Below, one piece after another: positions 26,115 to 54,636 of a stretch of DNA of 64,000 bases. The first letter of the stretch is position 1. Every line of letters starts with the position of its first letter. Position numbers and translations under genes: made by a program. Source of the DNA: Candidatus Micrarchaeota archaeon (lineage in GTDB: Archaea; Micrarchaeota; Micrarchaeia; Micrarchaeales; CABMGC01); the NCBI GenBank assembly GCA_021850705.1, contig JAJZKU010000002.1, forward strand, positions 2,825 to 66,824. The letters run 5' to 3'. A model generated the notes under the pieces. The model searched no databases, was not told the DNA's origin, and was given only the letters and a program-made list of their open reading frames with translations.

Positions 26115-26135
26115 AATACCATCATTAAAAATCAA

Positions 26136-32255: not shown

Positions 32256-32259
32256 ATGC

Positions 32260-33207: not shown

Positions 33208-33373
33208 CTTACTCCCTTATTATTTCTGGCTGTATTACGACTGATTATCCCTCACAGATTTATAACTATATGCGGCTACCGAATTATTTATAATAGAATA
33301 CCTGTTAATGGCATATGACGAAATATTATTAGACAGTACCGTGTACCTTCTGTAATTATCCGTGCGTCATCTT

Positions 33374-34630
33374 TTATTCATTAACTGCACTTTTGGAGAG
33401 AACCTCATTGTAATTATGCGTCACATACTTTCTTGCCCATGAGTCTGCCTCTATTATCTGTTCTAGTGTAGGCTCCTTATTGACAGAATGGGAATCTAGT
33501 GCGCTCTCTATCAGCTTTGGCATATCTGTAAACCTTATTCTCCCATTGCAGAAGAGCTCCACAGCTGTTTCGTCCGCACCATTCAGTACGGCAGGCGCGC
33601 TCCCGCCAAGCCTCCCTGCCCTGTATGCAAGGGCTATACTTGGGAAGCGCTCAATATCAGGCTCTTCAAAATCAAACCTCCCTATCTTTGAGAGCTCAAG
33701 CCTCTTCAGTCCCGTGTCTATCCTGTATGGATAGGTAAGCGCATACGCTATCGGATATCTCATATCGTGAGGTCCCTGCTGTACCTTTTGGCTTCCGTCT
33801 ATCAACTGGACGCCAGAATGGACTATACTCTGAGGATGCACTACTATCCTTACTTTATCAACATCAACCCCGAATATAGATGCTATCTCTATTACTTCCA
33901 TCCCCTTGTTCATGAGCGTTGCAGAACGTATCGTTATCAGCCTGCCCATGTCCCATGTAGGATGCTTCAAAGCCTGCTGCACAGTAGCCTTGTCAAGTTC
34001 ATCCTTCTTCCACTCTCGGAAAGGACCCCCTGAACAGGTGAGTATGAAATGGCCTATGTTGTTCTTTGCGCCTCTGTGCAGATGCCATATCGCACTGTGC
34101 CTGTCTTCCGAAGCATATATCTCAGGCTCCAATGTCTGCCATATCGCATTCGGTTCGCTGTCTATCGGCAGTATCTCTACATTATGCCTCTTTGCAGCTT
34201 CCGTTATCAGCCTGCCTGCAGTCAGGAAGGCCTCCTTGTTTGCTACCGGCACAGTATTTCCTGCTTCAATAGCTGCAAGTGTCGGTGCAAGTCCTGCAAA
34301 TCCTGCAGTCGCTATAACCACATATCCGTTGCTTATGCTCATGCAAAGATCCACCGCTTCCTGTTCCCCGGACAGTATAGTGGTCTTAATCCCCTTCCCG
34401 GAAAGCCGCATCCTGAGCTCCTTTGCTTTATCATCATTGACTACTACTGCTCTTTCAGGGCTGAACTCCAGAATCTGCTTCTCAAGAATGTCTATGTTGC
34501 TATTGCATGCCAATCCGTATACTTTGAAGTTTCGTTTGCCTGAGAGTCTTTTAACAACGTCAAGCGTCTGCGTCCCTATCGAACCGGTAGAACCATGTAT
34601 TACCAATGGTATCTCGTCATCCATAGCCAC
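33374..34630 (-). CDS. dxr: 1-deoxy-D-xylulose 5-phosphate reductoisomerase (MEP pathway)
   Basis: HGSTGSIGTQTLDV, ANKEAFLTAG, PIDSEPNAIWQ and LKHPTWDMG motifs. Confidence 0.92.
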   Translation of the reverse strand: MAMDDEIPLVIHGSTGSIGTQTLDVVKRLSGKRNFKVYGLACNSNIDILEKQILEFSPERAVVVNDDKAKELRMRLSGKGIKTTILSGEQEAVDLCMSISNGYVVIATAGFAGLAPTLAAIEAGNTVPVANKEAFLTAGRLITEAAKRHNVEILPIDSEPNAIWQTLEPEIYASEDRHSAIWHLHRGAKNNIGHFILTCSGGPFREWKKDELDKATVQQALKHPTWDMGRLITIRSATLMNKGMEVIEIASIFGVDVDKVRIVVHPQSIVHSGVQLIDGSQKVQQGPHDMRYPIAYALTYPYRIDTGLKRLELSKIGRFDFEEPDIERFPSIALAYRAGRLGGSAPAVLNGADETAVELFCNGRIRFTDMPKLIESALDSHSVNKEPTLEQIIEADSWARKYVTHNYNEVLSKSAVNE

Positions 34631-35799: not shown

Positions 35800-37332
35800 A
35801 TGAACAAAGGAGCTGTCGTTGGAGCAATAGTGCTCTTGGTGATAATAATAGCAGGTGCATACCTGATACTGCAGAACCAGGCGAATCTGGGAAGCAATGC
35901 AAATCTTGCAGTGATCAGCCTTACGGACCCGCCTAATGTCCCTAATGGTACAACATCACTCATGATATCATATTCGGCAGTGCAGGCGCATGTAGTAAAT
36001 GCAAGTTCATCAGGATGGGTAAACATACAGGGAAGCGGTTCTGTTGACCTTCTCTCGCTAGTCAACGTATCTCAGATAATAGCCAATTCTGGCATAGCTG
36101 CAAATTCAACGATAAACATGGTAAGATTCAAAGTGAATTCTGCCAATATAACAATAAACGGAGTAACTTCCAATGTCAGCGTGCCAAGCAGCATGATAAC
36201 TGCAAACGTAAGCAACAGCGGAAACAATACCTCGCATATACTTGTAGACCTCTCTCCTTCAATAGTGGCAATATACACCAACTCATCGACCGTGTTTATC
36301 ATGGTTCCGTCAGTACGCGCAGTCGCCTTTGCAGGAAGCCATGGCCATGTGCAGATAGGGACAAGAGCACAGCTAAACTCATCAGAAAAGGCAGAGATAG
36401 CTGTAAGGCCAAATCTAAGCATAACGGGTGAATCTGTGATGAGCTCAGGAAACACCAGCACAGTCAGCGTAACAGTGAAGAATAACGGCAACCAGAGCAT
36501 AACAATAAGGCATGTGATGGTAAGAGGAAGCATGCAGGTAGTTGTAAAGCCATTCGCGAGCGTAGACGCATCAGAGAATGCGAATGTGAACTCATCTGAA
36601 GGTGCTGGGATAAACGCCTCAGGAAAATCAGAAACTAATGTAAATTCACAGAGAAGGCCACTTGTCATGGGAGTACTGAATGGCAATGCCAATGCAAGTG
36701 CAAATGCAAGCGGTTTAGGTGCCAACCTTAACGGCTCTTACGGCATAGGTCTGCACAATGGTAACATCAGCGTAAACGAGAGCACAATCGTCAACAATGG
36801 CAAGGCGTTGCTCAATGAGACCATACATGTGGTTGCAGGCAACGTGGTTAAGATAGGAGACCTATTCATAAATGGAAATGCAATAACCTCTGGAAACGTC
36901 AGCATAAACGGCTCAGTTGTCAGGATAGGCAACATAGTAAGTATAAATAACGGAGAGATAGAAGTTGACGGAAGAGGTACAGGCGTCAGGATAAGCGGAC
37001 AGGGAGCCCAGGAAGCAGCCAACATAGGCGCAAATATAAAAACCAGAGTAAGCACCTTGGCGACTCTTGGGATAGAGATAAATGACCTGAGATCGGTGAA
37101 CTTTGCAGTATCGAGCAACGGCACATTGATACTGCCTAACTCGGAGAGGTCTGCTGAGGGAGAGAACGGATATGTTCTTGCTCCTGGTGCACAGGCAACA
37201 TTCACCTATTCGGGGACCATGTCTGCAGGAAACGGCCATGTGCTGATAAACTTTGTTCCTGGAAGCAATTACCGCGTTTATATACAAGGACAGGAAGGAG
37301 CAAATGCAAGGGCAAACGTAACTGCGTCATAA
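35800..37332 (+). CDS. N-terminally anchored, Asn-rich surface protein (possibly DUF4382-like N-domain)
   Basis: TM/signal segment GAVVGAIVLLVIIIAGAYLIL. The protein is rich in N-x-S/T sequons (NGTT, NASS, NVSQ, NSTI, NITI, NVSV...). Confidence 0.65.
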   Translation: MNKGAVVGAIVLLVIIIAGAYLILQNQANLGSNANLAVISLTDPPNVPNGTTSLMISYSAVQAHVVNASSSGWVNIQGSGSVDLLSLVNVSQIIANSGIAANSTINMVRFKVNSANITINGVTSNVSVPSSMITANVSNSGNNTSHILVDLSPSIVAIYTNSSTVFIMVPSVRAVAFAGSHGHVQIGTRAQLNSSEKAEIAVRPNLSITGESVMSSGNTSTVSVTVKNNGNQSITIRHVMVRGSMQVVVKPFASVDASENANVNSSEGAGINASGKSETNVNSQRRPLVMGVLNGNANASANASGLGANLNGSYGIGLHNGNISVNESTIVNNGKALLNETIHVVAGNVVKIGDLFINGNAITSGNVSINGSVVRIGNIVSINNGEIEVDGRGTGVRISGQGAQEAANIGANIKTRVSTLATLGIEINDLRSVNFAVSSNGTLILPNSERSAEGENGYVLAPGAQATFTYSGTMSAGNGHVLINFVPGSNYRVYIQGQEGANARANVTAS

Positions 37333-37778: not shown

Positions 37779-38363
37779 TCATACCGATGTCGAAGCTGTC
37801 GTATATACTGTAGTCGTAGATACAGATACTGTCTGAGAAGTTGTCCATAGCATAACGCGCAGCTCTGCAGGAACTCCATTATCCAAGATTACAGGAGTGT
37901 CTTGAACCACTACTGTAGTGGCATTATATGCCAGAGGATTTGGCCCTATGGTAAGGTTGTACAACTGCGGCGAGTAAATGACTATATAATAGTTATAGCT
38001 TACTCCAAGAAGCTGTTTTGATGCATCATAGTTGATTAGAGATAAGGCATAGAGCTTTGCTATCTTTGCTTCTGACAACCTGCCGCCTGTGCTGCTTGCA
38101 AGTCCTATGCTGGTATTTGTCCATGTTGACAGGTTTGCCGGATCTACTGAATAATACCAGTTGGAAGGAGTTCCTGTTGTCAACAGTCTGTTGGTAAGCT
38201 GCTGCATATCTGACTGCATATTACCATATGCATTCGAGTATGTTATAGAAAACTGCTGCGACACATTAAACCAGACATAGGTAAGAATAACCATGGTTAT
38301 TGCAAATATCACTATCGCAAAGATCATATCCATAGACCAGAATTGCAGCTTCATGTTCCCCAA
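37779..38363 (-). CDS. pilin-like protein (class III signal-like N-terminus)
   Basis: MKLQFWSMDMIFAIVIFAITMVILTYVWF is a short basic N-terminus plus a hydrophobic helix. Sequon-rich, with a Thr/Ser-rich C-terminus. A 13-nt overlap with the upstream giant gene suggests an operon. Confidence 0.6.
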   Translation of the reverse strand: MGNMKLQFWSMDMIFAIVIFAITMVILTYVWFNVSQQFSITYSNAYGNMQSDMQQLTNRLLTTGTPSNWYYSVDPANLSTWTNTSIGLASSTGGRLSEAKIAKLYALSLINYDASKQLLGVSYNYYIVIYSPQLYNLTIGPNPLAYNATTVVVQDTPVILDNGVPAELRVMLWTTSQTVSVSTTTVYTTASTSV

Positions 38364-41300
38364 CTCAAAGGTATCTGCTCAGTATATGTTATTGGCAACT
38401 GATTGTTATAAAGTTGATATACCTGCCCTGATGTAAGCGAGACGTTATAATACTCTATATTTGCTACGCTGCCTGCAAGATTAGGACCAACTATGATGGG
38501 GCTTGACGGTATTCCTGATGAAGAAGTGCCTTTAGCCAGAAGCACTCCATCGGCATAATAACTTACGTTCTTTCCATCAAACGTGCCCACTACATATGTC
38601 CACTTTCCAATAGGAAATGTTGTGACATTATTTGAAGTTGCGCTCCCTCCACCAACTGTAAATCCTTGTTTTGACGAAGTTCTGAAAAGCCCGTAATTCG
38701 AACTTCCAGGAGTGCCCAGATAAACTCCTGGTCCTGAAACCGGCTGGTCCAGATATACCCATGAAGCTATGCTGAAGTGCTGATAATTGTGATTATCGGC
38801 TACTATCGCATTACCCGAACCCAGTGAGGATACTCCATAGCTGTTCAGTGAAGGTATCGCAGAAGGATTTACTAAATATTCATAAGTTGTGGCATTCTCA
38901 GTACCGTTATTCCCATTACCGCTGTAATCATTTGCATTTCCATTAAGCGGCCACCATCCTACCAGCCCATCATTAGGTCTTGGCATGCCGTAGATTCCGG
39001 AATTATATAACATACTAACTTCCTTCTTAGATAACGGCACGCTGTATAACTGCACGTTTGCCATGGATCCATTTAATGCGTATGCCTCTCCAGAACTGTA
39101 TGAGTTGCCTATATCGAACGGTACTGATTGCGCAAGATTAAGATGCGCGCTTAGCATGGCGGAATCCGCTGTCGTATTGTCTAGATATACGGTTACCTGT
39201 CCTGTGCTTCCATTATACTCTGCAGTCACCATCTCCCAGGTATTTAGAGGAAAGGATGGCAATCCATTGCCGCCATATCCTGTCCATTTCACTATCTGTC
39301 CTCCAACAAGAAGGACATATTCCAAAGCAGCGGCATCGGTACACGCATAAAACTGGAATCCTGTGCTAGCACTGCTATCTCCAGCTACGCTTTCCCAGCC
39401 GGTACACGAATTAAGTTTAATCCATGCGGTGATTGTGAACGATCCTGTAGTTAATACGTCTGCATAATTCTTTATATTATTGACAGCCATGTAGCTGCCG
39501 TCTGCATGGCTGAAACCGGTTGCAAGAAAACGGGCAGTATTGTTGGGTACAGTCTGTTGCATGTTCTGGGAGACGAATCTGAAGCTGCCTGTTCCAAATC
39601 CGTTGTCATTATTACTGCTGTAGTCATTCGTATTCCCATTTAGTGGCCACCAGCCTACAAGTCCGCCAAGCAAAGGCATTCCGCTAATTCCCTCATGATA
39701 AAGAAGGGATATCTGGGATTCAGAAAGTGAAGCATCATAAACCTGTGCATTGGCAATAGCACCGTTGAAATACGTACCGACTGCCCCGGGAAGTATGGTC
39801 CCATATCCTATGTACAGCGGGCTCTTTGACACTACGAGATTGCTTCCTGTGCCTGAATTGGATCTGCATGCAGTATTGACACATATCGTTGCAGTTCCGT
39901 TCGAGTTAAGAGACCCTACAACAAAAGACCATTCGCCGATAGGGACCTTTACCCCAGAATAGATGGGCGTGGATGCCAGTACTCCGTCCATTACCGCATA
40001 TCCACTCGCATTTATTGATATTTCATACTGTAAGCCCTTTGCGATTATGCCTGCCCCGTTCCTGTTGTCTGCCGAGTATCTTTTAGGGTAAACCCATGCG
40101 GCAAGTGTGACAGAATTCGTTGGATCAAGCGAAGCAGAATCAGCGACGTTTACATAGCTATCATATCCTGTGAACTGTCCGACATAATTCACATTGTTCC
40201 AGTATCCGTTCTCCAGAGTACCAGGATCCAAACTGTTAGCAAAATTGAAGATAACATTGCCTTGGTTAGTATTAAGCGGCCACCAGCCGGAGAGATTCTT
40301 CGCAGTATATGCGTTTCCTTCAAAAGGAGTGACCTTGACATTGGCATATCCTGTATTGTTTGTCTGCATCAGGAAAGCTGTTGCAATACCGTTGTTATTT
40401 GTAAAATTAGAAGCAGACTGGCCGTTTCCTTCAAAGCTGCCAAGAGTTGATGAAAAGCCCACAAGGTCACCTTTTACAGGAGACAGGGTAACATTTGTCA
40501 CATTTGCATATATTTGTGCTACAGTAGGATAAACCACCTGATATGCTCTTCCATCGTTTCCATTTCCACTGTAATCATTTGCATTGCCATTCAGCGGCCA
40601 CCATGCAGATAGGTTATCCGACCTGACAGGCGCTCCGTTTATTCCACCATTCTGGAGCTGGGTTATCTGGTTAGAGTTAAGTGCAGTACTGTATATCTGC
40701 AGGTCAGATACCGAACCGCTGAACGGGGTACCGCTCTGGCAGGCTCCCTGTCCGCTATTGTAAGTATAATCGGTTGAACCTAAGACCAGGTTGTAGATAT
40801 AACTTGCAGAATCCAATGGCACTACTCCGTTTGCGATAGTCTTCCTCCCATTTACATAAAGCGCAAGCTTGTTTGTGGCATCGGAGTATGTCCAAGCTAC
40901 AAAGTACCACGTATTGCTCTTTATCGGAAGGAAGGCTTCTGATGAACCTCTGTTAATGTTCTGGAAACCACCATATATATTATTATTAGACACATATATC
41001 ATAGGGCCAAAGCAGTAGCTTCCCTGCTGGGATGTTCCATAATTGACTACTGCCATATGTCCTGAACTAGGCGGCAATTGTTTTACATATACCCATGCAG
41101 ACATTGTTATCGCGTTGTAGACAAACGGCTGCAAAAGGCTCGGAGAGTTTGCAACGTAAATGTAGCTGTCCTGCCCATTCATCTGTGCTACGTGCGTTAC
41201 TTTAGTGTATACATCAAGGCCTGAACCTTGTGCATAGGTGGTGTTGCACACATAATCTATGCATATATCTCCGTGAGAGTTCTGCAGATATATCAGACCG

Positions 41301-41698
41301 CTTGCAACAGGCATGTTGTATGTATGAATGGCATTAGGGGATTCGTACTGTTGCGAGGAAATTACTCTGGCTACAGGAGCATAAGCATAAGCGTACGAAA
41401 GCTTTCCAGTAGCATTATTATACACTATTACCGTCCCTGAGGAAGTGATAGATAGGTTATAATTCACAAGACCTGCGCCTGAAGGAAGGCTGACATTCTG
41501 AGCATACCCGTTGCCTAAAGATGATGCGGTATTTATATCCTGTGCTATTGTCTGCGCTATTACCTGCAGCTGCGCATAATCCTGCTGCTGCGACTGCTCA
41601 ACGCGCTGCGTCGCTACCAAGCCGAATATCAGAACGAATATTATCAGCACGAACGAGAATACTATTACATAATCTATTGAGAGTTGGGCCTTTACCAT
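38351..41698 (-). CDS. giant pilin-signal protein with multiple LamG (concanavalin A-like lectin) modules
   Basis: The likely start is MVKAQLSIDYVIVFSFVLIIFVLIF (track ORF extends to 41725). There are four WWPLN(G/T)N... inter-module linkers (e.g. LVGWWPLNGNANDYSGNGNNG), each preceded by a ..LQIYSTALNSNQI..-type LamG_3 C-terminal strand. Confidence 0.8.
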   Translation of the reverse strand: MVKAQLSIDYVIVFSFVLIIFVLIFGLVATQRVEQSQQQDYAQLQVIAQTIAQDINTASSLGNGYAQNVSLPSGAGLVNYNLSITSSGTVIVYNNATGKLSYAYAYAPVARVISSQQYESPNAIHTYNMPVASGLIYLQNSHGDICIDYVCNTTYAQGSGLDVYTKVTHVAQMNGQDSYIYVANSPSLLQPFVYNAITMSAWVYVKQLPPSSGHMAVVNYGTSQQGSYCFGPMIYVSNNNIYGGFQNINRGSSEAFLPIKSNTWYFVAWTYSDATNKLALYVNGRKTIANGVVPLDSASYIYNLVLGSTDYTYNSGQGACQSGTPFSGSVSDLQIYSTALNSNQITQLQNGGINGAPVRSDNLSAWWPLNGNANDYSGNGNDGRAYQVVYPTVAQIYANVTNVTLSPVKGDLVGFSSTLGSFEGNGQSASNFTNNNGIATAFLMQTNNTGYANVKVTPFEGNAYTAKNLSGWWPLNTNQGNVIFNFANSLDPGTLENGYWNNVNYVGQFTGYDSYVNVADSASLDPTNSVTLAAWVYPKRYSADNRNGAGIIAKGLQYEISINASGYAVMDGVLASTPIYSGVKVPIGEWSFVVGSLNSNGTATICVNTACRSNSGTGSNLVVSKSPLYIGYGTILPGAVGTYFNGAIANAQVYDASLSESQISLLYHEGISGMPLLGGLVGWWPLNGNTNDYSSNNDNGFGTGSFRFVSQNMQQTVPNNTARFLATGFSHADGSYMAVNNIKNYADVLTTGSFTITAWIKLNSCTGWESVAGDSSASTGFQFYACTDAAALEYVLLVGGQIVKWTGYGGNGLPSFPLNTWEMVTAEYNGSTGQVTVYLDNTTADSAMLSAHLNLAQSVPFDIGNSYSSGEAYALNGSMANVQLYSVPLSKKEVSMLYNSGIYGMPRPNDGLVGWWPLNGNANDYSGNGNNGTENATTYEYLVNPSAIPSLNSYGVSSLGSGNAIVADNHNYQHFSIASWVYLDQPVSGPGVYLGTPGSSNYGLFRTSSKQGFTVGGGSATSNNVTTFPIGKWTYVVGTFDGKNVSYYADGVLLAKGTSSSGIPSSPIIVGPNLAGSVANIEYYNVSLTSGQVYQLYNNQLPITYTEQIPLSWGT

Positions 41699-41862
41699 TG
41701 CAACGCAATTTATAGTAACCAACACAGCTTAAAAAAGATTTAGTTACGTCTCTTTCACAAAGCCTTACAGATACCTATTTAAACTCTAAAATAAATTAAT
41801 TATTCAATCGCCGCCAGCCGTAATATAATAAGGTTTGAATTTAACATAATATGTGTTTGTAA

Positions 41863-44091
41863 ATGAAGGGAATCGTCTTTACACTTGATGCTGTTTTTGC
41901 AATAATGATAGCCACGATTGCGATATCTATTTTATTATACTTCAATTATGCTCCTGTAAATCAATACAGCGTAGAGGCTTCTTCAGTCGGTTCCTTAGTA
42001 AGTATGTTATCAACTACGAATTTAGCGAATTTCAGCTCCCCACTTGCTGCCCAGATTAACAACCAGTATCAAGCCATAAATCAGGAATGGCCTGAATTCT
42101 ACCAGAGCGACAACGGTTCAAATAGCAACATTAACGGTCCGAATACTGACAGCGTTCTTATGGTATACAACACCTCTTCCCCATATATAAACGCCAACGG
42201 CATTGTTGCAGCAGGAGGAGCAATAAACTTCCTAAATTGTCAATGTGGAGTATATTATAATTCATATGGATATGTAGTACAGTCCCAAGGTCTTTATGCG
42301 GACAATCAAGGTTACTTAATCTATTACGATAACGCATACGTCTCTGCTAATAACATTAATGTGACTAATGGACAATGGTCATTTAAACTGCCCTCTTCTT
42401 CGAGTCAGATATCCTCACCAATATTGGGATATGATGGAATGATCATTGTCCCGGTTTATACTAGCGGAAATTCTGCAGAAACAGGAATAATAGGAATACA
42501 CGCGAATAACGGTACGGAAGCATGGATTCTGAACATAGGTGGCGAGGTTAACTCTATTGCCATAGCAAATGGCGATATGGCTGCTGCAGTTGGGAATACG
42601 GTTAAGGTATTTGGATACCAGGGAAGCGGTGTCCCTATAAGTATTTACAATAATACGTATGCATACTTGCCAACCAGAATAGTTTTCTACGACGGATCAT
42701 TTTATGTTGCAGATTCCTCATCGACCTCAGGCATATCTGTCTACAACAATGCGCTTTTTTCTCAGTCAACATCTAATTATGACTCTGGAGTCGGGAACGT
42801 GAGCTCAGGATCTTGGACAGTCCACATGCCTCAATATATAGGCAAATCTCTGATCGGTGGGCAGCCTGTTGCCACAAGTGGGAACCTGTATACATTATGG
42901 TCCAATAAATATTTAGTAGACCAAAATCCAGATAACGGTAAGATAAAATGGGCTATACAGATACCTTACTCCGGTGCATTATCCCCGCGAATGATACTTG
43001 CATACGGGGAACTTTATGTGGTTGTGGGAAGTAAGCTTATCTCATTCGGAAGCTGCCCAGGAATTTCATCAAGGTCCATACTCTCAAACTTAATCTCTTT
43101 CTATGCTAACGGGCTATCAAGCTGTGCAGATACGCTTCTAAGTACTGCAAATCCATCACAAAATGCTTCTGTGATGACATCATCTGGAGATACGACCGGC
43201 ATTACATATGAAAATAAAACTCTTATGTATCCATACGTGCTTAACTTTACAGGATATGATAGCTATGTTCGTATATCAAATAACAGTGCACTAAGTCCAG
43301 AAGCAGGCCCAAATGGGAAAATGTCCCTATGTGCATGGTATAACATAGTCTCTTTATCAGGTTATTATGGCCCTTTAATAAAAGGGAAGAATCCACCGAG
43401 CAATGGCAATGCATGGGAGTACACGCTTGATCAGAAAGGCTATACTGGTCCATCGTCCCATCCCTCATTTACTGTATGGAGTCCTTCCGGTGCGAATATA
43501 GCTTATGGGGAGGCCAATTCAATAACGTTTAATAGTATGTTAAATAACTGGTCATTCGCATGCTTTACTTATGATTATCCGGACCAGAAGGCATATTACT
43601 ACTTTAACGGAGTACAGTATAATGCAAGTATTACCAACGCATATGGTCCGGCTTCTGCAGGCAATGGGAGCATTGTCATAGGCGCCGGAGAGAACCCGTC
43701 AAATCCTTCCACCAACCCGGGATACTCTAAGGTGATGGTCTCAGATTTACAGATTTATAATGCGATACTATCCAAAAGCCAGATAAAGATGTTATATCAG
43801 CAGGGCATTACTGCCTCGCCGATACAATCTGACGGTCTTGTAGGCTGGTGGCCTCTCGGAGGGGATGCGAACGATTACAGCGGCAACGACCATACAGGAT
43901 TTATATCATATGCAATTCCAGCTTATGCAGGATTCATATCCCCCAGCTATCAAGACTCTCAAACTGTTAGTGTATCAAAAGTGATAGTCCTATCGCAATT
44001 CTCAGGAGAGACAAGAATTTACAACTCCTTTTATATAGTAAGTCCATCAGCTAGTTATGAATTCATAGGTGGGGTATATAGCTGGAGATAA
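41863..44091 (+). CDS. pilin-signal protein with PQQ-like beta-propeller repeats and a C-terminal LamG module
   Basis: MKGIVFTLDAVFAIMIATIAISILLY N-terminus. NGTEAWILNIGG and DNGKIKWAIQIP repeats resemble PQQ_2/BamB-like blades. Also SDLQIYNAILSKSQIKMLYQQG...LVGWWPLGGDANDYSGNDHTG. Confidence 0.75.
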   Translation: MKGIVFTLDAVFAIMIATIAISILLYFNYAPVNQYSVEASSVGSLVSMLSTTNLANFSSPLAAQINNQYQAINQEWPEFYQSDNGSNSNINGPNTDSVLMVYNTSSPYINANGIVAAGGAINFLNCQCGVYYNSYGYVVQSQGLYADNQGYLIYYDNAYVSANNINVTNGQWSFKLPSSSSQISSPILGYDGMIIVPVYTSGNSAETGIIGIHANNGTEAWILNIGGEVNSIAIANGDMAAAVGNTVKVFGYQGSGVPISIYNNTYAYLPTRIVFYDGSFYVADSSSTSGISVYNNALFSQSTSNYDSGVGNVSSGSWTVHMPQYIGKSLIGGQPVATSGNLYTLWSNKYLVDQNPDNGKIKWAIQIPYSGALSPRMILAYGELYVVVGSKLISFGSCPGISSRSILSNLISFYANGLSSCADTLLSTANPSQNASVMTSSGDTTGITYENKTLMYPYVLNFTGYDSYVRISNNSALSPEAGPNGKMSLCAWYNIVSLSGYYGPLIKGKNPPSNGNAWEYTLDQKGYTGPSSHPSFTVWSPSGANIAYGEANSITFNSMLNNWSFACFTYDYPDQKAYYYFNGVQYNASITNAYGPASAGNGSIVIGAGENPSNPSTNPGYSKVMVSDLQIYNAILSKSQIKMLYQQGITASPIQSDGLVGWWPLGGDANDYSGNDHTGFISYAIPAYAGFISPSYQDSQTVSVSKVIVLSQFSGETRIYNSFYIVSPSASYEFIGGVYSWR

Positions 44092-44113
44092 TGTTCTTTA
44101 TGGATGATTGTTT

Positions 44114-47100
44114 ATGAAACTGCAACTTATGACAATAAGTGTTTTGATTCTGTTTATTCTTATGCTAGCCGAATTAGTGATATTCATAACACTGAATACT
44201 GGATATGCCAGTTTATCACAATCATATTCGCAACAAAGCAACCTTCTGAGTTATAAGTCGTATCTAATCTCAACCAGCAAAGCGTTTGCAGCCAAAGCAC
44301 TACACGATGCTTTGTTTAGCTTAGCGGTTTATGAATATAATAGCGGAGGACCTAATTTTATTACTAATTCCTCAGAATACATTTCACAGATAGTCAAAAA
44401 CGGCACTGTACCTAATGAATATGTTTATGTATCATATAATGGAGCTGGCCCCGGGATAAACTCTTATAATTACGGGGATCTTAATGATCCATCTACATTT
44501 ATCTTTTTTAACGGATCTGTAGAAGCTCAACCTCCTTACGGCGTCTCCAATATAGTAATAAAGGAATCTATGCCATCGGTCTACCAAAACGGCCCGTATA
44601 ACATATCTGTAGCATATACTGAATATGTTAGTCTTAACGCGAGTGGCGTCATCTATAAATATGAAATACCTGTAAATGCCACCATATCTTTAAACGGGAC
44701 TCCTGACTTATATTATGCCCAGCAAGGGATAACAAGGTACATAAATTTTGGAAACGTTTCCACTCTTATAACAAATATTGGTAACTCCGAAGCGCTTAAC
44801 GGGACTACTGGTCTGTTTGCATTTGGCAGCGTTCTGGATTACGGGAGCAATACGGTGTGCCCAAGCAATAATGCGCTAATATCATCGCAGATAATATTTG
44901 CCACAGACAACGCCCAGAATATAAACTGCAACGGAAGCAATTTTGGCGGAATAATCTCATATAACTCTCCTTCTGCAATTCCTGCCAATTATGTAGCATA
45001 CCTAAACTACCCTGTTGCATCAAACTATATATCGAATAGTATAAACGATGGCCAAGCAGTTCTTCTATACGGACCTTCTCTAGAAACCCTAGATACACAT
45101 GGTCTGATAAATGCAATAAATAACGGTTATTACTTTGCCTCTCCTTTTGCTCCGTCATACCTTGACAGGGCAGATGGGAATCTTGGAAATAGCTCTATAG
45201 ACGGCATATTTACTTTTACAGGATATAACAAAAGAGTAGCGTATCTTACAGAAAATTCATACATAGCAGGTAACGGGGTAACTATAGCAAACATAACGAA
45301 CCTTGAGTGGGTGTACCCTATGAGCAACCAATCGTTCGGTCCTATAGCGGAATTCGGCGGATCTACAGAGAATTCTGGTTTTTATAATATAAGTCTTGAC
45401 AATGGAAATATAGTAATATGGAATGGGGCTAAGAAGTACGTAAGCTCATTCATTGTTCCTACGTACAGGTGGAGCTTAATAGGATTCTCATTAAACAAGA
45501 GTTTTATAAGAGTATTCGATAATGGGAATTCACAGCTGTTCTCTTCGCTCTCCAATCCATCACCAAGCCCAAATAACAAAGATTTTATAATAGGCGCCCA
45601 GTTAGGAAACAATAATTATTATACAAAAATGGCCATATCAGACCTGCAGCTGTATAACAATACACTGAATACGCAGCAGGTGTATAAAGTATATCAAGAT
45701 GGAATTGGCAGCCTCCCTATACCCGATTCGAATATTATTTTGTGGTTGCCGCTAAACAATAATGCTAATGACCTTAGTGGAGTTGACGGCTATAGCTATA
45801 CCATATGGACAAACGGTATTGGAACAATATATTATGCCAATAGACATAATATTATCCCATACAGGGTCAATTATTTATATCCGCAGAACTATAACCGGGA
45901 CAGTGCACTTATAGTCCCATCTGCACAGCCAACCTTCCCCATACCTGGAATTCTTGCATGCAGCAACAATCAGCAGTGCGCCAACTTAACCTCTCCTCAT
46001 CTATACCTTTCAGATATACCTTTGGAATACGGGCCAAGCCTTGCTGCTTCATTCAATCCAAGTGTCAGCAGCATGATAGTAACACAACAGCTAAATGCAA
46101 CTCCTCTTACAAAATCCACATCATTCACTTTCTCGACATGGATATACGGCTACGGCCCCACTACCGGCGGAGAGACCATAGCAAACAGTTCAAATAACAA
46201 CAACGATGCGGGATTTGACCTATTATTCTCAAAACTAGGAAATGGTCAGTCTGATTATATATTATCAATGGCACCTTGCTGCAACAACAGGCTTCCGTGG
46301 CCTAACGGGGTCGAAAGTTTTCCACTTAACACATGGGAGATGGTAACTGCAGAGTACAACACAACTACCGGGATAGCAAGCGTTTATCTCAACTCCACTC
46401 TATTCGTATCTAAGAACGTCGGGAAAGGGCTAAATGTTGCACAGCTTCTCCCTATTTATCTAGGAAGTAACAGTGTAAGCGGAGGACCGACTTACTCATT
46501 CAACGGACTAATGTCAGACGTGCAGTTATACAATACAAGCCTGAACAACGGTCAAATATCTTCGCTCTATTCTGAGGGAATAGCAGGTGCTCCAATACAA
46601 TCAAGCACTCTTGTTGCCTGGTGGCCGCTTAACGGGAATGCAAATGATTACAGCGGAAACGGAAATAATGGTTTTACATACAACCTTACTTATACTCCAA
46701 TAACAGGATATTCTGATTATGGAACGTCTACGCCTACTGCCATATCTGATGAATGGCAAGCTCTTGGTTTTGGAGCTGCGCCGCAACAGAGCATCTTCTG
46801 GAACGTTACCGGATGGACGAGTTCAAGTGGCATACTCCCATACTCATCTGTCACGGCGAGTCCTGCACTTCCGCAAGGAGTCAGTGTCGAAACATCAAAT
46901 ATTGCAGGATGGTACGGCATACCTACATACAGGAACAATGCCAATGGCCTTCCAGGTTTCACAGGATGGGCTTACGAGAGCAATACGATAACCGGCAGGC
47001 AGATAAACCTGATGAATGCAGTGCCATTTCCTGTGCCTTTCAACGCTCTCAACAATGCAATAGCGTGTGGTTCTGGAACCGGATACACTGCAACAGCAAA

Positions 47101-47341
47101 CCTTACTCTCACCGGAACATATACTGTAAACGTATATATTACTGGGGCTACTCAAGTATTCTACAGACAGGAAGGGTCGGATATCTGGAATCCCATTCTT
47201 CCTTCGGCAGCCTGGGGCTCAAACAACGGCCAGACATATTCGGGAAGCTTTACGCTTACCCCTGGCGCATACCAATTTGCAGTAGACTATGAAGAATCCT
47301 GCGGGACAGGTGTCAGCTCATTCTCAATGAGTTACGGATGA
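44114..47341 (+). CDS. giant pilin-signal protein with LamG modules and a PA14-like C-terminal domain
   Basis: MKLQLMTISVLILFILMLAELVIF N-terminus (track start is TTG at 44108). LamG linkers IILWLPLNNNANDLSG and LVAWWPLNGNANDYSGNGNNG. C-terminus: TLTGTYTVNVYITGATQVFY...FTLTPGAYQFAVDYEESCGTG. Confidence 0.78.
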   Translation: MKLQLMTISVLILFILMLAELVIFITLNTGYASLSQSYSQQSNLLSYKSYLISTSKAFAAKALHDALFSLAVYEYNSGGPNFITNSSEYISQIVKNGTVPNEYVYVSYNGAGPGINSYNYGDLNDPSTFIFFNGSVEAQPPYGVSNIVIKESMPSVYQNGPYNISVAYTEYVSLNASGVIYKYEIPVNATISLNGTPDLYYAQQGITRYINFGNVSTLITNIGNSEALNGTTGLFAFGSVLDYGSNTVCPSNNALISSQIIFATDNAQNINCNGSNFGGIISYNSPSAIPANYVAYLNYPVASNYISNSINDGQAVLLYGPSLETLDTHGLINAINNGYYFASPFAPSYLDRADGNLGNSSIDGIFTFTGYNKRVAYLTENSYIAGNGVTIANITNLEWVYPMSNQSFGPIAEFGGSTENSGFYNISLDNGNIVIWNGAKKYVSSFIVPTYRWSLIGFSLNKSFIRVFDNGNSQLFSSLSNPSPSPNNKDFIIGAQLGNNNYYTKMAISDLQLYNNTLNTQQVYKVYQDGIGSLPIPDSNIILWLPLNNNANDLSGVDGYSYTIWTNGIGTIYYANRHNIIPYRVNYLYPQNYNRDSALIVPSAQPTFPIPGILACSNNQQCANLTSPHLYLSDIPLEYGPSLAASFNPSVSSMIVTQQLNATPLTKSTSFTFSTWIYGYGPTTGGETIANSSNNNNDAGFDLLFSKLGNGQSDYILSMAPCCNNRLPWPNGVESFPLNTWEMVTAEYNTTTGIASVYLNSTLFVSKNVGKGLNVAQLLPIYLGSNSVSGGPTYSFNGLMSDVQLYNTSLNNGQISSLYSEGIAGAPIQSSTLVAWWPLNGNANDYSGNGNNGFTYNLTYTPITGYSDYGTSTPTAISDEWQALGFGAAPQQSIFWNVTGWTSSSGILPYSSVTASPALPQGVSVETSNIAGWYGIPTYRNNANGLPGFTGWAYESNTITGRQINLMNAVPFPVPFNALNNAIACGSGTGYTATANLTLTGTYTVNVYITGATQVFYRQEGSDIWNPILPSAAWGSNNGQTYSGSFTLTPGAYQFAVDYEESCGTGVSSFSMSYG

Positions 47342-47395: not shown

Positions 47396-47755
47396 ATGCC
47401 TGAAACAGTAACAAAAACGGAATATAAACCATTTACCATGACCAAAAAGCAGCTAGCTTCAGAAGAGTTCGCATTTGTGAACGGTAACAAGAGCGTCATG
47501 ATAGAACGCATAGCTGACGGCAGGATCCCGGGTTCGTACCTTCTGAAAGGATATGTAGAGAGCAAAGAAAGGAAGGGAACATACTTCCAGGTCGATATAG
47601 TAATATCTGATAGCAAGCATAACAGCATACCCTGGAGCAACTGCACCTGTACGAGTGCCCATTACAGGTCAAATCCTTGCCATCATGCACTGCGGATGAG
47701 GGATGTCTTCCTTGCAAACAGAAATAATATGCTGAAAGCAGTCATGAGAAGATAG
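47396..47755 (+). CDS. small SWIM zinc-finger protein (paralog of 26136..26483)
   Basis: CTCTSAHYRSNPCHHAL motif plus a shared block PGSYLLKGYVESKERKGTYF. Confidence 0.75.
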   Translation: MPETVTKTEYKPFTMTKKQLASEEFAFVNGNKSVMIERIADGRIPGSYLLKGYVESKERKGTYFQVDIVISDSKHNSIPWSNCTCTSAHYRSNPCHHALRMRDVFLANRNNMLKAVMRR

Positions 47756-47805
47756 GTTAAGCAGAAGGATAAATTATATTAATCTGAATTTACAATGGTA
47801 TTAGT

Positions 47806-48867
47806 ATGAAAAGCGGGAAGCTTATTGGCCTTGGGATAAATGCTGCAAAAAGCAATCTCACGGAGCTTAAAAGGCCTTACAAGATGACATTCGCAATAAC
47901 CTATAGATGCCAGTCCAGGTGTCTTACATGCAACATATGGCAGCGAAAGCCTGTAAATGAACTGACAACAGATGAGATCAGGGAGTTTGCAAAAAAGAAC
48001 AACTATTTCAGATGGTTAGAGATTACAGGCGGAGAACCATTCCTCAACAGCGATATTGTTGAGATAGTAAAGGCCTTCGTTCAGAATTCAGATGGTCTTT
48101 TCATACTCACGATGCCTACAAATTCACTCTGCAACCAGGAGATGCTTGTAGGAAAGCTAAAGCAGATACTTGATCTAGGAATACCGAAAGTATCGATAAC
48201 ACTCAGCCTTGATGGCAATAGGGAGCTGCATGACAGGATCAGGGGCATCCCAGGTAACTTTGACAGGGTGATGTCCATGGCAAGAAGGCTTAAGGAGCTG
48301 CAGAAGGAGTACAAGAACCTCTTTTTTGTCTTCGGCTATACTATGTCAAGACTTAACCAGGGTCACCTTGAAGAGACAATAAACGATGTAAGGAAGGAGC
48401 TGCCATGGGCAACCGCCAACAATTTCCATGTGAATGTGGGCCAATTATCCGGCATGTATTACGGAAATGAGGATATGCAGATAGCAGCTGACAGGGAGTC
48501 CGTAGCTAAAGAGGTCAAGATGCTGCTAAAGATGAGAAAGAAGGAGATCGGGATAATTCCCATAATAGAAGGCATATTCCTGCGTAAGCTTGTCGACTAT
48601 GTCACTACTGGCAAATCTCCTATGAGGAGCAGGAGCATGGACGTCTCGCTCTTCCTTGACAGCTATGGCAATGTCTTCCCTTCGATAATGTGGGATAAGA
48701 AGATAGGAAACATACGGGATACAGGATATGACCTTGGGAAGATTTGGTCGAGTCAGGAAGCCGATGAGATAAGGAAGAGCATAAAGGAAGGGAAGGAGCC
48801 TGATTCATGGACCGCATGCGAAGCATATCAGACAATAGTAGGAGATATAAAAGAAGCAGTAATATAG
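47806..48867 (+). CDS. radical SAM protein
   Basis: ITYRCQSRCLTCNIW (CxxxCxxC) and LEITGGEPFL motifs. Confidence 0.85.
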   Translation: MKSGKLIGLGINAAKSNLTELKRPYKMTFAITYRCQSRCLTCNIWQRKPVNELTTDEIREFAKKNNYFRWLEITGGEPFLNSDIVEIVKAFVQNSDGLFILTMPTNSLCNQEMLVGKLKQILDLGIPKVSITLSLDGNRELHDRIRGIPGNFDRVMSMARRLKELQKEYKNLFFVFGYTMSRLNQGHLEETINDVRKELPWATANNFHVNVGQLSGMYYGNEDMQIAADRESVAKEVKMLLKMRKKEIGIIPIIEGIFLRKLVDYVTTGKSPMRSRSMDVSLFLDSYGNVFPSIMWDKKIGNIRDTGYDLGKIWSSQEADEIRKSIKEGKEPDSWTACEAYQTIVGDIKEAVI

Positions 48868-48883
48868 TATATCTTGCTACGGT

Positions 48884-51726: not shown

Positions 51727-51779
51727 ACTAAATGCTTATATCCTTTACCTATGACCAATAATTATTCGGTGCTTTAAAA

Positions 51780-54599: not shown

Positions 54600-54636
54600 G
54601 CTTATCTAATCCTCAAGACAATAATAAGATCCTTTT

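What the first reader, a model, noticed from the sequence alone, without database searches (positions are those of the whole stretch)
37779..47341. Divergent four-gene cluster of giant pilin-signal proteins built from lectin-type modules (LamG, PQQ propeller, PA14-like)
Seen: two genes on the minus strand (37779..38363 and 38351..41698, which overlap) and two on the plus strand (41863..44091 and 44114..47341) diverge from a 137-bp (track ORF ends) to 164-bp (preferred start) AT-rich promoter region. All four proteins start with a short basic N-terminus followed by an uninterrupted hydrophobic helix of about 20 residues. The N-termini are MVKAQLSIDYVIVFSFVLIIFVLIF, MKGIVFTLDAVFAIMIATIAISILLY, MKLQFWSMDMIFAIVIFAITMVIL and MKLQLMTISVLILFILMLAELVIF. 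This is the layout of archaeal class III (type IV pilin/archaellin-like) signal peptides, which are cleaved after [KR]-[GA]. The three large proteins (about 1115, 742 and 1075 aa) contain seven copies in total of the LamG_3 linker signature (L/I)xxWWPLNGNANDYSGNGNNG, each preceded by ..Q(I/L/V)Y...L...(Q/E)(I/V)..LY. The 742-aa protein also has PQQ/BamB-like propeller repeats. The about 1075-aa protein ends in a PA14-like domain. All are dense in N-x-S/T sequons. No pilus ATPase, platform protein or prepilin peptidase lies in the window. Inference: this is a surface-fibre or pilus-displayed multivalent carbohydrate-binding adhesin system. Candidate roles are cell-cell or host attachment, or polysaccharide capture. 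This exact architecture is not a characterised system as far as I know.
Basis: partly seen in the sequence, partly recalled or inferred. Interest (0 to 1): 0.8.

Follow-up and report, generated by a model that had tools for sequence, protein, structure and literature searches.

The report
Pilin-like lectin adhesin genes, Micrarchaeota
Four neighbouring genes of a tiny symbiotic archaeon (Micrarchaeota) encode pilin-like proteins, three of them giant and loaded with sugar-binding-type modules; in related genomes they sit next to a pilus-assembly machine, so they are probably the sticky subunits, likely at the tip, of a pilus used to grab a host or a surface.

Summary
The four ORFs exist at the stated coordinates. 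All start with a short basic leader and a hydrophobic helix. The three large ones hold seven WWPL…DYSGNG motifs and Laminin_G_3 domains. The 742-aa protein has a BamB/YxaL-like propeller (AF2 + Foldseek E 7e-12). Its relatives hit Pfam PQQ_2. The last 215 aa of the 1075-aa protein have only weak PA14 links.

The window is from a Micrarchaeota (DPANN) archaeon. The four genes form a phylum-wide module: 40 distinct loci carry all four. In 36 they are colinear (A, small, B, C). In 29 of those they lie beside a convergent operon with a FlaI/TadA-like ATPase and two TadC-like proteins.

The N-termini are strictly conserved. Position -2 is K/R. Position +1 is always Q in two families. Three families always have an acidic residue at +5 or +6; the fourth never does. 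This resembles EppA-type (Epd) pilins and the bacterial minor-pilin set in which one subunit lacks Glu5.

The divergent layout is a lineage-specific inversion, and the machinery operon is missing from this locus.

Best reading: modular minor pilins or adhesins of an Epd/Tad-like type IV pilus. Published genomics had partly noted this; nothing has been tested experimentally. I call it a new variant of a known kind, of moderate interest.

The parts
38351..41698 (-). Gene A (1115 aa). N-terminus is class III-like: MVK-A|QLSID..., with Q at +1 and D at +5. A pilin-like N-domain of about 165 aa is followed by four Laminin_G_3 modules.
   Evidence: Laminin_G_3 E 2.8e-59, 4 stretches; in 45 distinct orthologues, +1 is Q in 45/45 and +5 is acidic in 45/45; the N-domain is found in 50 loci.
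39599..40201 (-). Hypervariable segment of A (aa 500-700, second LamG module).
   Evidence: 34-41% identity to L001 and L006 here. The rest of A is 66-94% identical (mostly 83-94%), and neighbouring housekeeping genes are 89-96% identical.
37779..38354 (-). Small gene (191 aa). A bare pilin-like subunit starting MK-L|QFWSMD..., with Q at +1 and D at +6. Its start overlaps the stop of A.
   Evidence: AF2 pLDDT 76.6, helix 8-57 followed by an alpha/beta head. Q at +1 in 51/51 and D at +6 in 51/51.
41699..41862 (.). AT-rich (29% GC) divergent intergenic region. It was created by inversion of the A-small pair in this lineage.
   Evidence: 36 of 40 loci are colinear, and only the window, L001, L006 and L007 are divergent.
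41863..44091 (+). Gene B (742 aa). N-terminus MK-G|IVFTLD... with D at +6, then a beta-propeller, a LamG module and a conserved C-terminal strand ...VYSWR.
   Evidence: invariant M1 K2 F6 T7 D9 F12 A13 down to 24% identity. Also.
42154..43047 (+). PQQ/BamB-like beta-propeller of B (aa 98-395).
   Evidence: AF2 gives all-beta structure over 98-395. Foldseek matches YxaL 7eq5_B at E 7.3e-12 (TMt 0.59) and BamB 8orr at E 1.1e-11. PQQ_2 in 7 of 15 aligned family members.
43165..43812 (+). LamG-type beta-sandwich of B (aa 435-650), followed by the WWPLGGDANDYSGN motif.
   Evidence: Laminin_G_3 in 7 of 15 aligned family members; tblastn of LamG pilin P0070 hits 43126-43944.
44114..47341 (+). Gene C (1075 aa). 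N-terminus MK-L|QLMTIS... with no acidic residue at +1 to +8. A conserved N-domain of about 380 aa of unknown fold is followed by two LamG modules and a C-terminal domain.
   Evidence: Laminin_G_3 E 2.7e-19, 2 stretches. N-domain hits with E down to 1e-75 across the phylum; no acidic residue at +1..+8 in 55/55.
46694..47338 (+). C-terminal 215-aa domain of C. It belongs to a rare family with a weak PA14-like signature.
   Evidence: 23 representatives among 1.8e9 proteins; weak phmmer hit to a 5xPA14 protein; hhalign probability 82% over 64 columns; best PDB hit is the RsgI3 PA14 dyad 6qe7 at E 0.013; no Pfam PA14 hit.

Best explanation
The four genes encode one bare type IV pilin-like protein and three giant modular ones, from a Micrarchaeota archaeon. 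They are the conserved accessory (minor-pilin/adhesin) set of an Epd/Tad-like archaeal type IV pilus.

Shown:
- The four families are co-inherited across the phylum, usually as one operon in the order A, small, B, C.
- In most genomes they lie beside a convergent operon encoding a FlaI/TadA-like ATPase, two TadC/FlaJ-like platform proteins and two accessory proteins.
- Their N-termini carry a strictly conserved class III-type motif: K/R at -2, a small residue or Leu at -1, Q or a hydrophobic residue at +1, then about 20 hydrophobic residues.
- Families A, small and B always have an acidic residue at +5 or +6. Family C never does.

Inferred:
- An A24 prepilin peptidase encoded elsewhere cleaves the leader.
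- The ATPase and platform machine extracts the proteins from the membrane through their N-terminal helices.
- They assemble as a complex, most likely at the tip, of a filament whose major pilin is encoded elsewhere.
- The subunit lacking the acidic residue (C) sits uppermost, and the small subunit acts as nucleator or stabiliser.
- The complex displays six to seven LamG modules (Pfam resolves six), a propeller and a PA14-like module, which bind glycans. Candidate ligands are on the host (for acidophilic Micrarchaeota, wall-less Thermoplasmatales) or in a biofilm matrix.

In this lineage the A-small pair has been inverted. The machinery operon is no longer at the locus, so assembly must rely on machinery encoded elsewhere in the genome.
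For: Synteny:
- The relative locus L003 has the four genes next to T2SSF x2 and T2SSE.
- tblastn with gene-specific pieces finds all four genes in 40 distinct loci. Of these, 36 are colinear and 29 of the 36 have TadC2-TadC1-p228-ATPase-p418 within 10 kb. Five of the other seven are cut by a contig end.
- The machinery proteins score as FlaI (E 6.6e-75), TadA (1.7e-46) and ArlJ/FlaJ-like.

N-terminal motif:
- Statistics are, and the B alignment is invariant at the N-terminus down to 24% identity.
- The Q+1/E+5 signature and the layout of one ATPase plus two TadC match M. maripaludis Epd pili and EppA substrates (PMC4371748; PMC4858521).
- Hundreds of roughly 300-aa Micrarchaeota LamG proteins start with [KR][SA]-QSAMEYLMTYGW, so LamG grafted on a pilin is a common design in this phylum.

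Structure and surface character:
- The AF2 model of the small protein has a 50-residue N-terminal helix and an alpha/beta head.
- B contains a propeller and a LamG sandwich.
- Sequon density is high and charged residues are depleted, as expected of surface proteins.
- Individual modules are hypervariable (26-41% identity) while neighbouring genes are 89-96% identical, as expected of exposed ligand-binding parts.

Precedents:
- S. sanguinis PilA/PilB/PilC form a tip complex of modular pilins, and PilC carries a ConA-like lectin (PMC9934059).
- In Mia14, LamG proteins are linked to type IV pilus loci and an A24 peptidase is present (PMC5498576).
Against: - The 64-kb window holds no ATPase, TadC or A24 peptidase. 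Whether this genome has them could not be checked.
- Two of the four window proteins have Leu at -1. That is not a classical prepilin peptidase site, and processing is untested.
- No curated pilin model reaches threshold. Class_IIIsignal scores E 0.23, Pilin_N 0.18 and DUF7287 0.01-0.2.
- Foldseek and PDB profile searches with the small protein find no pilin.
- The N-terminal helix of B is broken after about 22 residues in the model, in a low-confidence stretch.
- No major pilin was identified.
- Ligands are unknown. LamG, propeller and PA14 folds are not always lectins.
Confidence: 0.7

Rival explanations
1. The proteins are N-terminally anchored cell-surface adhesins. The hydrophobic N-terminus is an uncleaved signal anchor, and the proteins stay in the membrane as a lectin coat. 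Adjacency to the pilus operon in relatives reflects co-regulation of surface functions, not incorporation into a filament.
For: - Leu at -1 in two of the four window proteins, and in 16/45 (A) and 19/51 (small) orthologues.
- No curated pilin family hit.
- No pilin fold match.
- The machinery is absent from the locus in this lineage although the genes are intact.
Against: - A simple anchor would not need an invariant K/R at -2, Q at +1 and an acidic residue at exactly +5 or +6 across about 50 orthologues per family.
- 29 of 36 colinear loci abut the ATPase and TadC operon.
- The motif class equals that of EppA-type pilins.
Confidence: 0.15
2. The proteins form a bindosome-like or pseudopilus-like surface assembly. 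They are processed like pilins but build a short, cell-proximal structure that captures polysaccharides or glycoproteins for feeding, as proposed for Sulfolobus sugar-binding proteins with class III signals.
For: - A weak N-terminal resemblance of C to BasB (E 0.027).
- The relative ATPase gives a sub-threshold BasE hit (E 2.7e-35).
- The proteins carry many lectin-type modules.
- No major pilin is encoded in the locus.
Against: - The BasB and BasE scores are far below cut-off (14 vs 230 bits; 122 vs 1000 bits).
- No ABC transporter or solute-binding fold is linked to the locus.
- Stand-alone major pilins are the rule in clade-1 archaeal pili.
- The ATPase scores best as FlaI/TadA-like.
Confidence: 0.1
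3. In this lineage the cluster is a remnant. After the assembly operon was lost from the locus, the four genes no longer function and are decaying or have been co-opted.
For: The machinery operon is absent between C and the LeuRS/M50 genes, although it lies next to the M50 orthologue in at least 13 other loci. A cassette of p119, radical SAM, carbamoyltransferase and GT4 sits there instead.
Against: - All four ORFs are intact in the window and in L001 and L006. In L007 the contig ends within C.
- The small protein is 90-98% identical and the pilin-like N-domain of A 89-95% identical between these genomes.
- Proteins 99-100% identical to B (P0001) and to the small protein (P0027) are in the public collection, and P0027 is encoded on contigs from at least six metagenome samples.
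- Pilin sets are known to work with machinery encoded elsewhere (PMC4858521 abstract).
Confidence: 0.05

Closest known systems
Epd (EppA-dependent) type IV pili of Methanococcus maripaludis, i.e. the 'clade 1' archaeal T4P of Makarova et al. 2016
   Same: - One FlaI/TadA-like ATPase plus two TadC-like proteins.
- Several co-encoded minor pilins, with the major pilin encoded elsewhere.
- Processing motif [KR]-[GA]-Q with an acidic residue at +5.
- Large LamG-like (DUF2341) proteins predicted to be tip adhesins.
- The Mia14 paper assigns one of its two T4P loci, which has a CpaF-type ATPase and two TadC, to this group.
   Different: - Here the adhesive modules are fused to the pilin-like N-termini themselves.
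- The set is a fixed quartet: A, small, B, C.
- The modules are Laminin_G_3, a propeller and a PA14-like domain rather than DUF2341.
- Leu is frequent at -1.
- No EppA was found at the loci.
- I did not test orthology of the ATPase to EpdL.
Streptococcus sanguinis minor-pilin tip complex PilA-PilB-PilC (modular type IV pilins)
   Same: - A small non-modular pilin plus large modular pilins that carry grafted adhesive modules.
- PilC carries a concanavalin A-like lectin that binds glycans.
- The complex is modelled at the pilus tip (PMC9934059).
   Different: - It is bacterial, with three rather than four subunits and one module each.
- Sequence homology was not tested.
- The archaeal proteins are 2-3 times larger, with up to four LamG modules in one chain.
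Bacterial four-minor-pilin tip complexes (GspH/I/J/K; FimU-PilV/W/X) with the PilY1 adhesin
   Same: - Four co-encoded pilin-like proteins, one of which lacks the acidic residue at +5 (GspK-type). Here C lacks it in 55/55 orthologues.
- The effector PilY1 has a beta-propeller. Makarova et al. report that DUF2341, the domain of the large archaeal proteins, is also present in PilY adhesins.
   Different: - The resemblance is by analogy only; no sequence or fold match was obtained.
- The propeller here is fused to a pilin-like subunit rather than being a separate protein.
- The acidic residue is at +6 in two of the families.
LamG-like protein expansion of 'Ca. Mancarchaeum acidiphilum' Mia14 and other DPANN archaea (arCOG07813)
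   Same: - Same phylum and same domain type.
- The authors note that some LamG proteins are linked to type IV pilus loci and propose host interaction (PMC5498576).
   Different: - That paper does not describe the conserved quartet, its pilin-type N-terminal motifs, the propeller subunit or the subunit without an acidic residue.
- In its Supplementary Table 2 only one 'secreted component' is listed for the locus.
Haloarchaeal Tat-fimbriae protein TafC (NCBIfam NF052521)
   Same: A LamG-type region is shared (E 1.1e-23 for A). TafC is also a fimbrial subunit.
   Different: - The score is 84 bits against a cut-off of 410, and only the LamG part aligns.
- Tafi are Tat-secreted and assembled by strand donation, not by a type IV pilus machine.
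- There is no twin-arginine motif here.

Membership tests
Type IV pilin-like proteins (class III signal peptide) | A short basic leader ending in [KR]-[G/A/S], followed by about 20 hydrophobic residues. | tested here: inconclusive
   In the window, A (K-A|Q) and B (K-G|I) fit. Small and C have K-L-Q. Family-wide, -2 is K/R in 42/45, 51/51, 52/52 and 55/55. Position -1 is G/A/S in 25/45 (A), 31/51 (small), 50/52 (B) and 52/55 (C), and mostly L otherwise.
Type IV pilin-like proteins (class III signal peptide) | A conserved acidic residue near +5 of the mature N-terminus, absent in one tip subunit. | tested here: met
   A has E/D at +5 in 45/45. Small has D at +6 in 51/51. B has D at +6 in 52/52. 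C has none within +1..+8 in 55/55.
Type IV pilin-like proteins (class III signal peptide) | Genetic linkage to a PilB/FlaI-type ATPase and a PilC/TadC-type platform protein. | tested here: met
   Not met in the window itself. Met in 29 of 36 colinear orthologous loci.
Type IV pilin-like proteins (class III signal peptide) | Cleavage by an A24 prepilin peptidase (PibD/FlaK/EppA). | not testable with these tools
   No A24-like ORF in the window or in the 10-kb flanks by motif scan, or by Pfam on the multi-TM ORFs of the window. Mia14 has one, MIA14_0570. The genome of this organism could not be searched.
Type IV pilin-like proteins (class III signal peptide) | Pilin fold: a long N-terminal alpha-helix packed on a beta-sheet head, with matches to solved pilins. 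| tested here: inconclusive
   The AF2 model of the small protein has helix 8-57 plus an alpha/beta head at pLDDT 76.6. Foldseek's best hit is E 0.017 with TM 0.22, to ribosomal proteins. The PDB profile search found no pilin.
Type IV pilin-like proteins (class III signal peptide) | A hit to the curated models PF04021 Class_IIIsignal or PF07790 Pilin_N. | tested here: not met
   The window proteins give no hit. Relatives reach only E 0.18-0.23. These models are very short, so the test has little power.
Laminin_G_3 (PF13385, ConA-like lectin/glucanase superfamily) | A Pfam hit above the gathering score. | tested here: met
   A scores 200 bits (4 stretches) and C 70 bits (2 stretches), against a cut-off of 27.6. 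B itself is below threshold, but 7 of 15 aligned B family members hit and the model shows a beta-sandwich at 435-650.
PQQ-like / BamB-type beta-propeller (PF13360) | A propeller fold with PQQ_2 repeats. | tested here: met
   B scores E 0.027, below threshold. PQQ_2 is found in 7 of 15 aligned B family members, best 5.8e-19. Foldseek matches YxaL and BamB at E 7e-12 to 1e-11 with TMt 0.55-0.59. This says nothing about PQQ binding.
PA14 domain (PF07691) | A Pfam hit, or a clear profile or fold match to PA14. | tested here: inconclusive
   No Pfam hit at E<=10. There is a weak phmmer hit (E 7e-4, five stretches) to a 5xPA14 protein. hhalign gives probability 82% and E 1e-5 over 64 columns. The best PDB hit is the RsgI3 PA14 dyad at E 0.013. 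No structure model was made.
TafC Tat-fimbrial protein (NF052521) | A full-length match above the cut-off of 410 bits, and a Tat signal. | tested here: not met
   Scores are 84 and 36 bits, and only the LamG region aligns. The N-termini have no RR motif.
Bindosome assembly pilin-like protein BasB (NF053670) | A match above the cut-off of 230 bits. | tested here: not met
   14 bits, E 0.027, covering only N-terminal residues 1-48 of C.
Four-minor-pilin tip complex (GspHIJK-like) | Homology or fold similarity of the subunits to the H, I, J and K pilins, and a requirement for filament priming. | not tested
   Only the count of four and the one subunit without an acidic residue are shared. No multimer modelling or genetics was possible.

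The most novel reading that the evidence does not exclude
The quartet may be the archaeal counterpart of the bacterial four-minor-pilin tip complex. It would be a roughly 3,100-residue pilus tip in which three of the four subunits are themselves giant lectin arrays: six to seven LamG modules, a propeller and a PA14-like module. The small subunit would nucleate the complex, and the subunit without an acidic residue would cap it. Its hypervariable modules would be the host-range determinants by which Micrarchaeota (DPANN) recognise the glycocalyx of their Thermoplasmatales hosts.
Probability: 0.35. Interest if true: 0.75.

Novelty: new variant of a known kind. Interest (0 to 1): 0.55.

Why it matters
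How DPANN archaea find and hold their hosts is largely unknown. Pili-like connections between ARMAN cells and Thermoplasmatales were seen by electron microscopy years ago, without a molecular assignment (recounted in PMC5498576).

This work defines a phylum-wide four-gene set of pilin-like proteins that is linked to pilus machinery and has hypervariable lectin-type modules. That set gives concrete candidates for the attachment and host-specificity apparatus. The candidates can be tested in the existing co-cultures (Mia14, Ca. Micrarchaeum harzensis).

It also extends the concept of modular pilins, established in Streptococcus sanguinis, to archaea and to much larger multi-module subunits. Finally, it hints that a four-subunit tip complex with one subunit lacking Glu5 may be ancient or convergent across domains.

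Tried and rejected
- Foldseek of the small-protein model against the PDB gave only insignificant ribosomal-protein hits. A PDB profile search with A2 gave nothing. There is therefore no direct fold evidence for a pilin.
- My third homologue search used a C-terminal query that still contained the LamG end and the WWPL linker. It was swamped by 988 LamG proteins, so it gave no alignment for the PA14-like domain and no structure could be predicted for it. It did reveal the LamG-pilin family.
- A motif scan for A24 peptidases (G.GD[VIALFMT]K in hydrophobic ORFs) found nothing in the window or in the 84 loci fetched up to that point. This is a weak test.
- The TafC and BasB hits from NCBIfam were considered and rejected as memberships.
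- The tandem 160-aa ORFs at 23.3-26.1 kb were checked as possible major pilins. They are soluble or glycine-zipper proteins with no class III N-terminus.
- No stand-alone LamG pilin or other Q-x-x-x-E pilin N-terminus exists in the window outside gene A.
- The sigma-70 promoter scan was not used, because the organism is archaeal.

Full report
**1. What is in the sequence**

The ORF list and translations confirm four genes:
- small: 37779-38354(-), 191 aa
- A: 38351-41698(-), 1115 aa
- B: 41863-44091(+), 742 aa
- C: 44114-47341(+), 1075 aa

A and small overlap at an ATGA-type junction. A and B diverge from a 164-bp region of 29% GC.

Pfam gives Laminin_G_3 for A (E 2.8e-59, four stretches) and for C (E 2.7e-19, two stretches). 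It gives nothing at threshold for B or small.

A regular-expression count finds seven W[WL]PL...D(Y/L)SG motifs, four in A, one in B and two in C. Five are preceded by the Q(I/V/L)Y...L...(Q/E)(I/V)..LY signature.

Sequon density is 1.9-2.6 per 100 aa. It is 0-0.7 in ten of eleven other proteins of the window. K+R+E+D is about 8-9% here against about 25% in those proteins, which is typical of surface proteins of an acidophile.

**2. Organism and distribution**

The window encodes archaeal LonB and Topo VI-A. Homologues of B come from metagenomes and MAGs labelled Micrarchaeota, Micrarchaeia or 'Marsarchaeota'.

A scan of one genome per GTDB species with the B alignment returned 562 candidate relatives. 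The 80 best were almost all Candidatus Micrarchaeota MAGs. Proteins 99% identical to B and 100% identical to small are in the public collection, and the latter is encoded on contigs from several metagenome samples. The genes are therefore real and belong to a natural population.

**3. The decisive context**

In the relative locus L003 the four genes are colinear: an 891-aa LamG protein, a 181-aa small protein, a 727-aa PQQ+LamG protein and a 655-aa LamG protein. They are followed by a convergent operon with two T2SSF proteins, an unknown 228-aa protein, a T2SSE ATPase and a 418-aa coiled-coil protein.

I then ran tblastn against all fetched loci with gene-specific pieces: the pilin-like N-domain of A, small, the N-terminus plus propeller of B, and the 380-aa N-domain of C. 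I left LamG out to avoid cross-hits. The results:
- 40 distinct loci carry all four genes.
- 36 of them have the order and orientation A, small, B, C.
- 29 of those 36 have TadC2-TadC1-p228-ATPase-p418 within 10 kb.
- Five of the other seven are cut by a contig end within 2 kb.

The ATPase scores as FlaI (E 6.6e-75) and TadA (E 1.7e-46). One platform protein scores as ArlJ/FlaJ-like.

Only the window and its close relatives L001, L006 and L007 have the divergent layout, and none of these has the machinery nearby. An M50-like peptidase gene follows p418 in at least 13 canonical loci, and in L051 it is followed by LeuRS. In the window its orthologue (50% identity) lies at 54637-55392, next to LeuRS. 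The space between C and LeuRS is occupied by a 119-aa gene, a radical SAM gene, a carbamoyltransferase gene and a GT4 glycosyltransferase gene.

The window locus is therefore the ancestral pilus locus. Within it, the A-small pair was inverted and the five-gene machinery operon was lost or moved.

**4. Are they pilins?**

Evidence for:

(a) The N-termini are the most conserved part of each family. In the B alignment M1, K2, F6, T7, D9, F12 and A13 are invariant down to 24% overall identity. Position counts across distinct orthologues:

| Family | n | -2 K/R | -1 | +1 | Acidic residue |
|---|---|---|---|---|---|
| A | 45 | 42 | L16 A13 G7 S5 | Q 45/45 | +5, 45/45 |
| small | 51 | 51 | A25 L19 G6 | Q 51/51 | D at +6, 51/51 |
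| B | 52 | 52 | G38 A12 L2 | hydrophobic | D at +6, 52/52 |
| C | 55 | 55 | G27 A25 L3 | Q 37/55 | none at +1..+8, 55/55 |

(b) A +1 glutamine with a +5 acidic residue is the signature of EppA substrates of the M. maripaludis Epd pilus (processing sites RAQI, KGQV, KGQL, KGQI). That pilus also uses one ATPase and two TadC paralogues (PMC4371748).

(c) Hundreds of roughly 300-aa single-LamG proteins of Micrarchaeota begin with [KR][SA]-QSAMEYLMTYGWAILIIA. This is the same motif class as family A, which reads K-x-QIALE[FY]LIV[FY]SF. A LamG module on a pilin N-terminus is thus a standard design in this phylum.

(d) The AF2 model of the small protein (pLDDT 76.6, pTM 0.64) has a continuous helix over residues 8-57, followed by an alpha/beta head.

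Evidence against or missing:
- No curated pilin model reaches threshold.
- Foldseek and PDB profile searches give no pilin match.
- Leu at -1 is unusual for known prepilin peptidases.
- No A24 peptidase was found in the window or the flanks.
- Processing is untested.

**5. The modules**

*Gene B.* The AF2 model has pLDDT 72 and pTM 0.73. It shows an N-terminal helix, an all-beta region over 98-395, two helices, a beta-sandwich over 435-650 and C-terminal strands. Foldseek's top hits are the eight-bladed propellers YxaL (E 7.3e-12, TMt 0.59) and BamB (E 1.1e-11). Trypanosome sialidases, which combine a propeller with a lectin domain, also appear. Seven of the 15 aligned B family members hit PQQ_2, and seven hit Laminin_G_3.

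*C-terminal domain of C.* The last 215 aa belong to a rare family, with 23 representatives at E<=1e-3 among 1.8e9 proteins. Pfam finds no PA14. Three independent weak signals nevertheless point to PA14:
- a phmmer hit with five stretches to a protein with five PA14 domains;
- hhalign probability 82% and E 1e-5 over the C-terminal 64 columns;
- a best PDB hit to the RsgI3 PA14 dyad 6qe7 at E 0.013.

I rate 'PA14-like' as plausible but unproven. Within the fetched loci this domain occurs only in the window lineage, L038 and L068.

**6. Evolutionary pattern**

I compared the window with L001, L006 and L007.
- Neighbouring LeuRS, DXR and radical SAM proteins are 89-96% identical.
- The small protein is 90-98% identical.
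- The first 500 aa of A are 83-94% identical to L001 and L006.
- A aa 500-700 (the second LamG) drops to 34-41% against L001 and L006.
- B is 56-59% identical overall, with aa 100-200 and 700-742 at 26-30%.
- C aa 1-600 is 49-76% identical, while its C-terminal part is 78-98% identical.

Such localised hypervariability is what one expects of exposed, ligand- or host-contacting parts. This is an inference.

**7. Mechanism proposed**

*Shown:* the co-inherited quartet, the class III-type N-termini, the machinery linkage in relatives, the lectin-type and propeller modules, the glycoprotein-like composition and the hypervariable modules.

*Inferred:* the proteins are inserted into the membrane and their leaders are removed by an A24 peptidase. 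The ATPase and TadC machine extracts them through their N-terminal helices. They assemble as a minor-pilin complex of a pilus whose major pilin is encoded elsewhere, which is the rule in clade-1 archaeal pili (PMC4858521). I place the complex at the tip on three grounds. The modules are too bulky for the shaft. One subunit, C, lacks the acidic residue, as GspK-type tip subunits do. And the S. sanguinis PilA-PilB-PilC complex offers a precedent (PMC9934059). The complex would mediate glycan-dependent adhesion to host cells or to matrix. My confidence is about 0.7 for pilus-associated pilin-like adhesins and about 0.35 for the specific four-subunit tip-complex model.

**8. Rivals**

- Uncleaved signal-anchor surface adhesins (0.15)
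- A bindosome-like or pseudopilus capture structure (0.10)
- A non-functional remnant in this lineage (0.05)

The evidence for and against each is given in the rival section of this report.

**9. Relation to what is known**

- Makarova et al. 2016 predicted large LamG-like (DUF2341) tip adhesins and several minor pilins in clade-1 archaeal T4P loci.
- Golyshina et al. 2017 noted an expansion of LamG-like proteins in Mia14 with 'some linked to type IV pili loci'. They listed a CpaF-type ATPase, two TadC, one 'secreted component' and one A24 peptidase.
- Literature searches found no paper that describes the quartet, its motifs or any experiment on it.

I therefore classify the finding as a new variant of a known kind: modular type IV pilins, or minor-pilin adhesin sets. 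Its value is moderate but real, because it gives testable candidates for DPANN host attachment.

Noticed in passing
window 30975-34630 (-): Three genes of the bacterial-type MEP isoprenoid pathway lie in a row in an archaeal genome: IspG/GcpE (30975-32255, E 4.6e-112), IspH/LytB (32260-33207, annotated by synteny with L001) and DXR (33374-34630). The block is conserved in L001, L006 and L007. Archaea normally use the mevalonate route.
   Followed up: no
window 47396-55392: An M50-like peptidase and LeuRS flank the pilus machinery operon in other Micrarchaeota. Here they are preserved, but the five-gene machinery operon is absent. A 119-aa SWIM-like gene, a radical SAM/SPASM gene, a carbamoyltransferase and a GT4 glycosyltransferase lie between C and LeuRS. 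This may be a glycan-modification cassette, given the heavily sequon-rich neighbours.
   Followed up: partly
window 35800-37332 (+): A 510-aa DUF4382 protein has a class III-like N-terminus (MNK-G|AVVGAIVLLVIIIAG). It has the highest sequon density in the window, at 5.1 per 100 aa. It is syntenic with the cluster only in the window lineage. It may be another pilin-signal or S-layer-type surface glycoprotein.
   Followed up: partly
proteins P0060-P0095 (not in the window): Hundreds of roughly 300-aa single-LamG proteins of Micrarchaeota carry the N-terminus [KR][SA]-QSAMEYLMTYGWAILIIA (Q at +1, E at +5). This is a large family of 'LamG pilins' sharing the WWPLNGNANDYSGNG motif. They could be major pilins or alternative tip subunits of the same pili.
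   Followed up: partly
window 39599-40201 (A), 42160-42460 and 43960-44088 (B), 44114-45900 (C): These segments show mosaic hypervariability, at 26-41% identity (49-76% in the C segment) to the closest relatives. Flanking genes are 89-96% identical. This suggests diversifying selection or module swapping.
   Followed up: partly
window 24551-26483 (-) and 47396-47755 (+): Three tandem, nearly identical 160-169-aa ORFs (24551-25033, 25086-25568, 25626-26135) have no Pfam hit. Next to them is a 115-aa ORF (26136-26483) that is 46% identical to the 119-aa SWIM-like ORF just downstream of gene C.
   Followed up: no
window 23321-24498 (-): A glycine-zipper, 17-kDa-antigen-like protein (23962-24498) sits beside a Tyr/Gly/Pro-rich 160-aa protein (23321-23803). 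Both have hydrophobic N-terminal segments. These are unusual, bacterial-looking small surface proteins.
   Followed up: no
window 16305-18069 (-): Two adjacent paralogous proteins with about nine TM segments each (275 and 277 aa). The second hits DUF7847 above the Pfam cut-off (E 6.5e-10); the first scores below it (E 5.8e-4).
   Followed up: no
extreme C-termini of small, B and A (e.g. window 44056-44088): A short conserved C-terminal strand follows the last module. In B it reads ...V(Y/V)xW(R/K) with W741 invariant, in small ...V/I-x-L/V-W-T, and in A ...PLSWG. It may return the chain to the pilin-like base or mediate subunit contacts.
   Followed up: no
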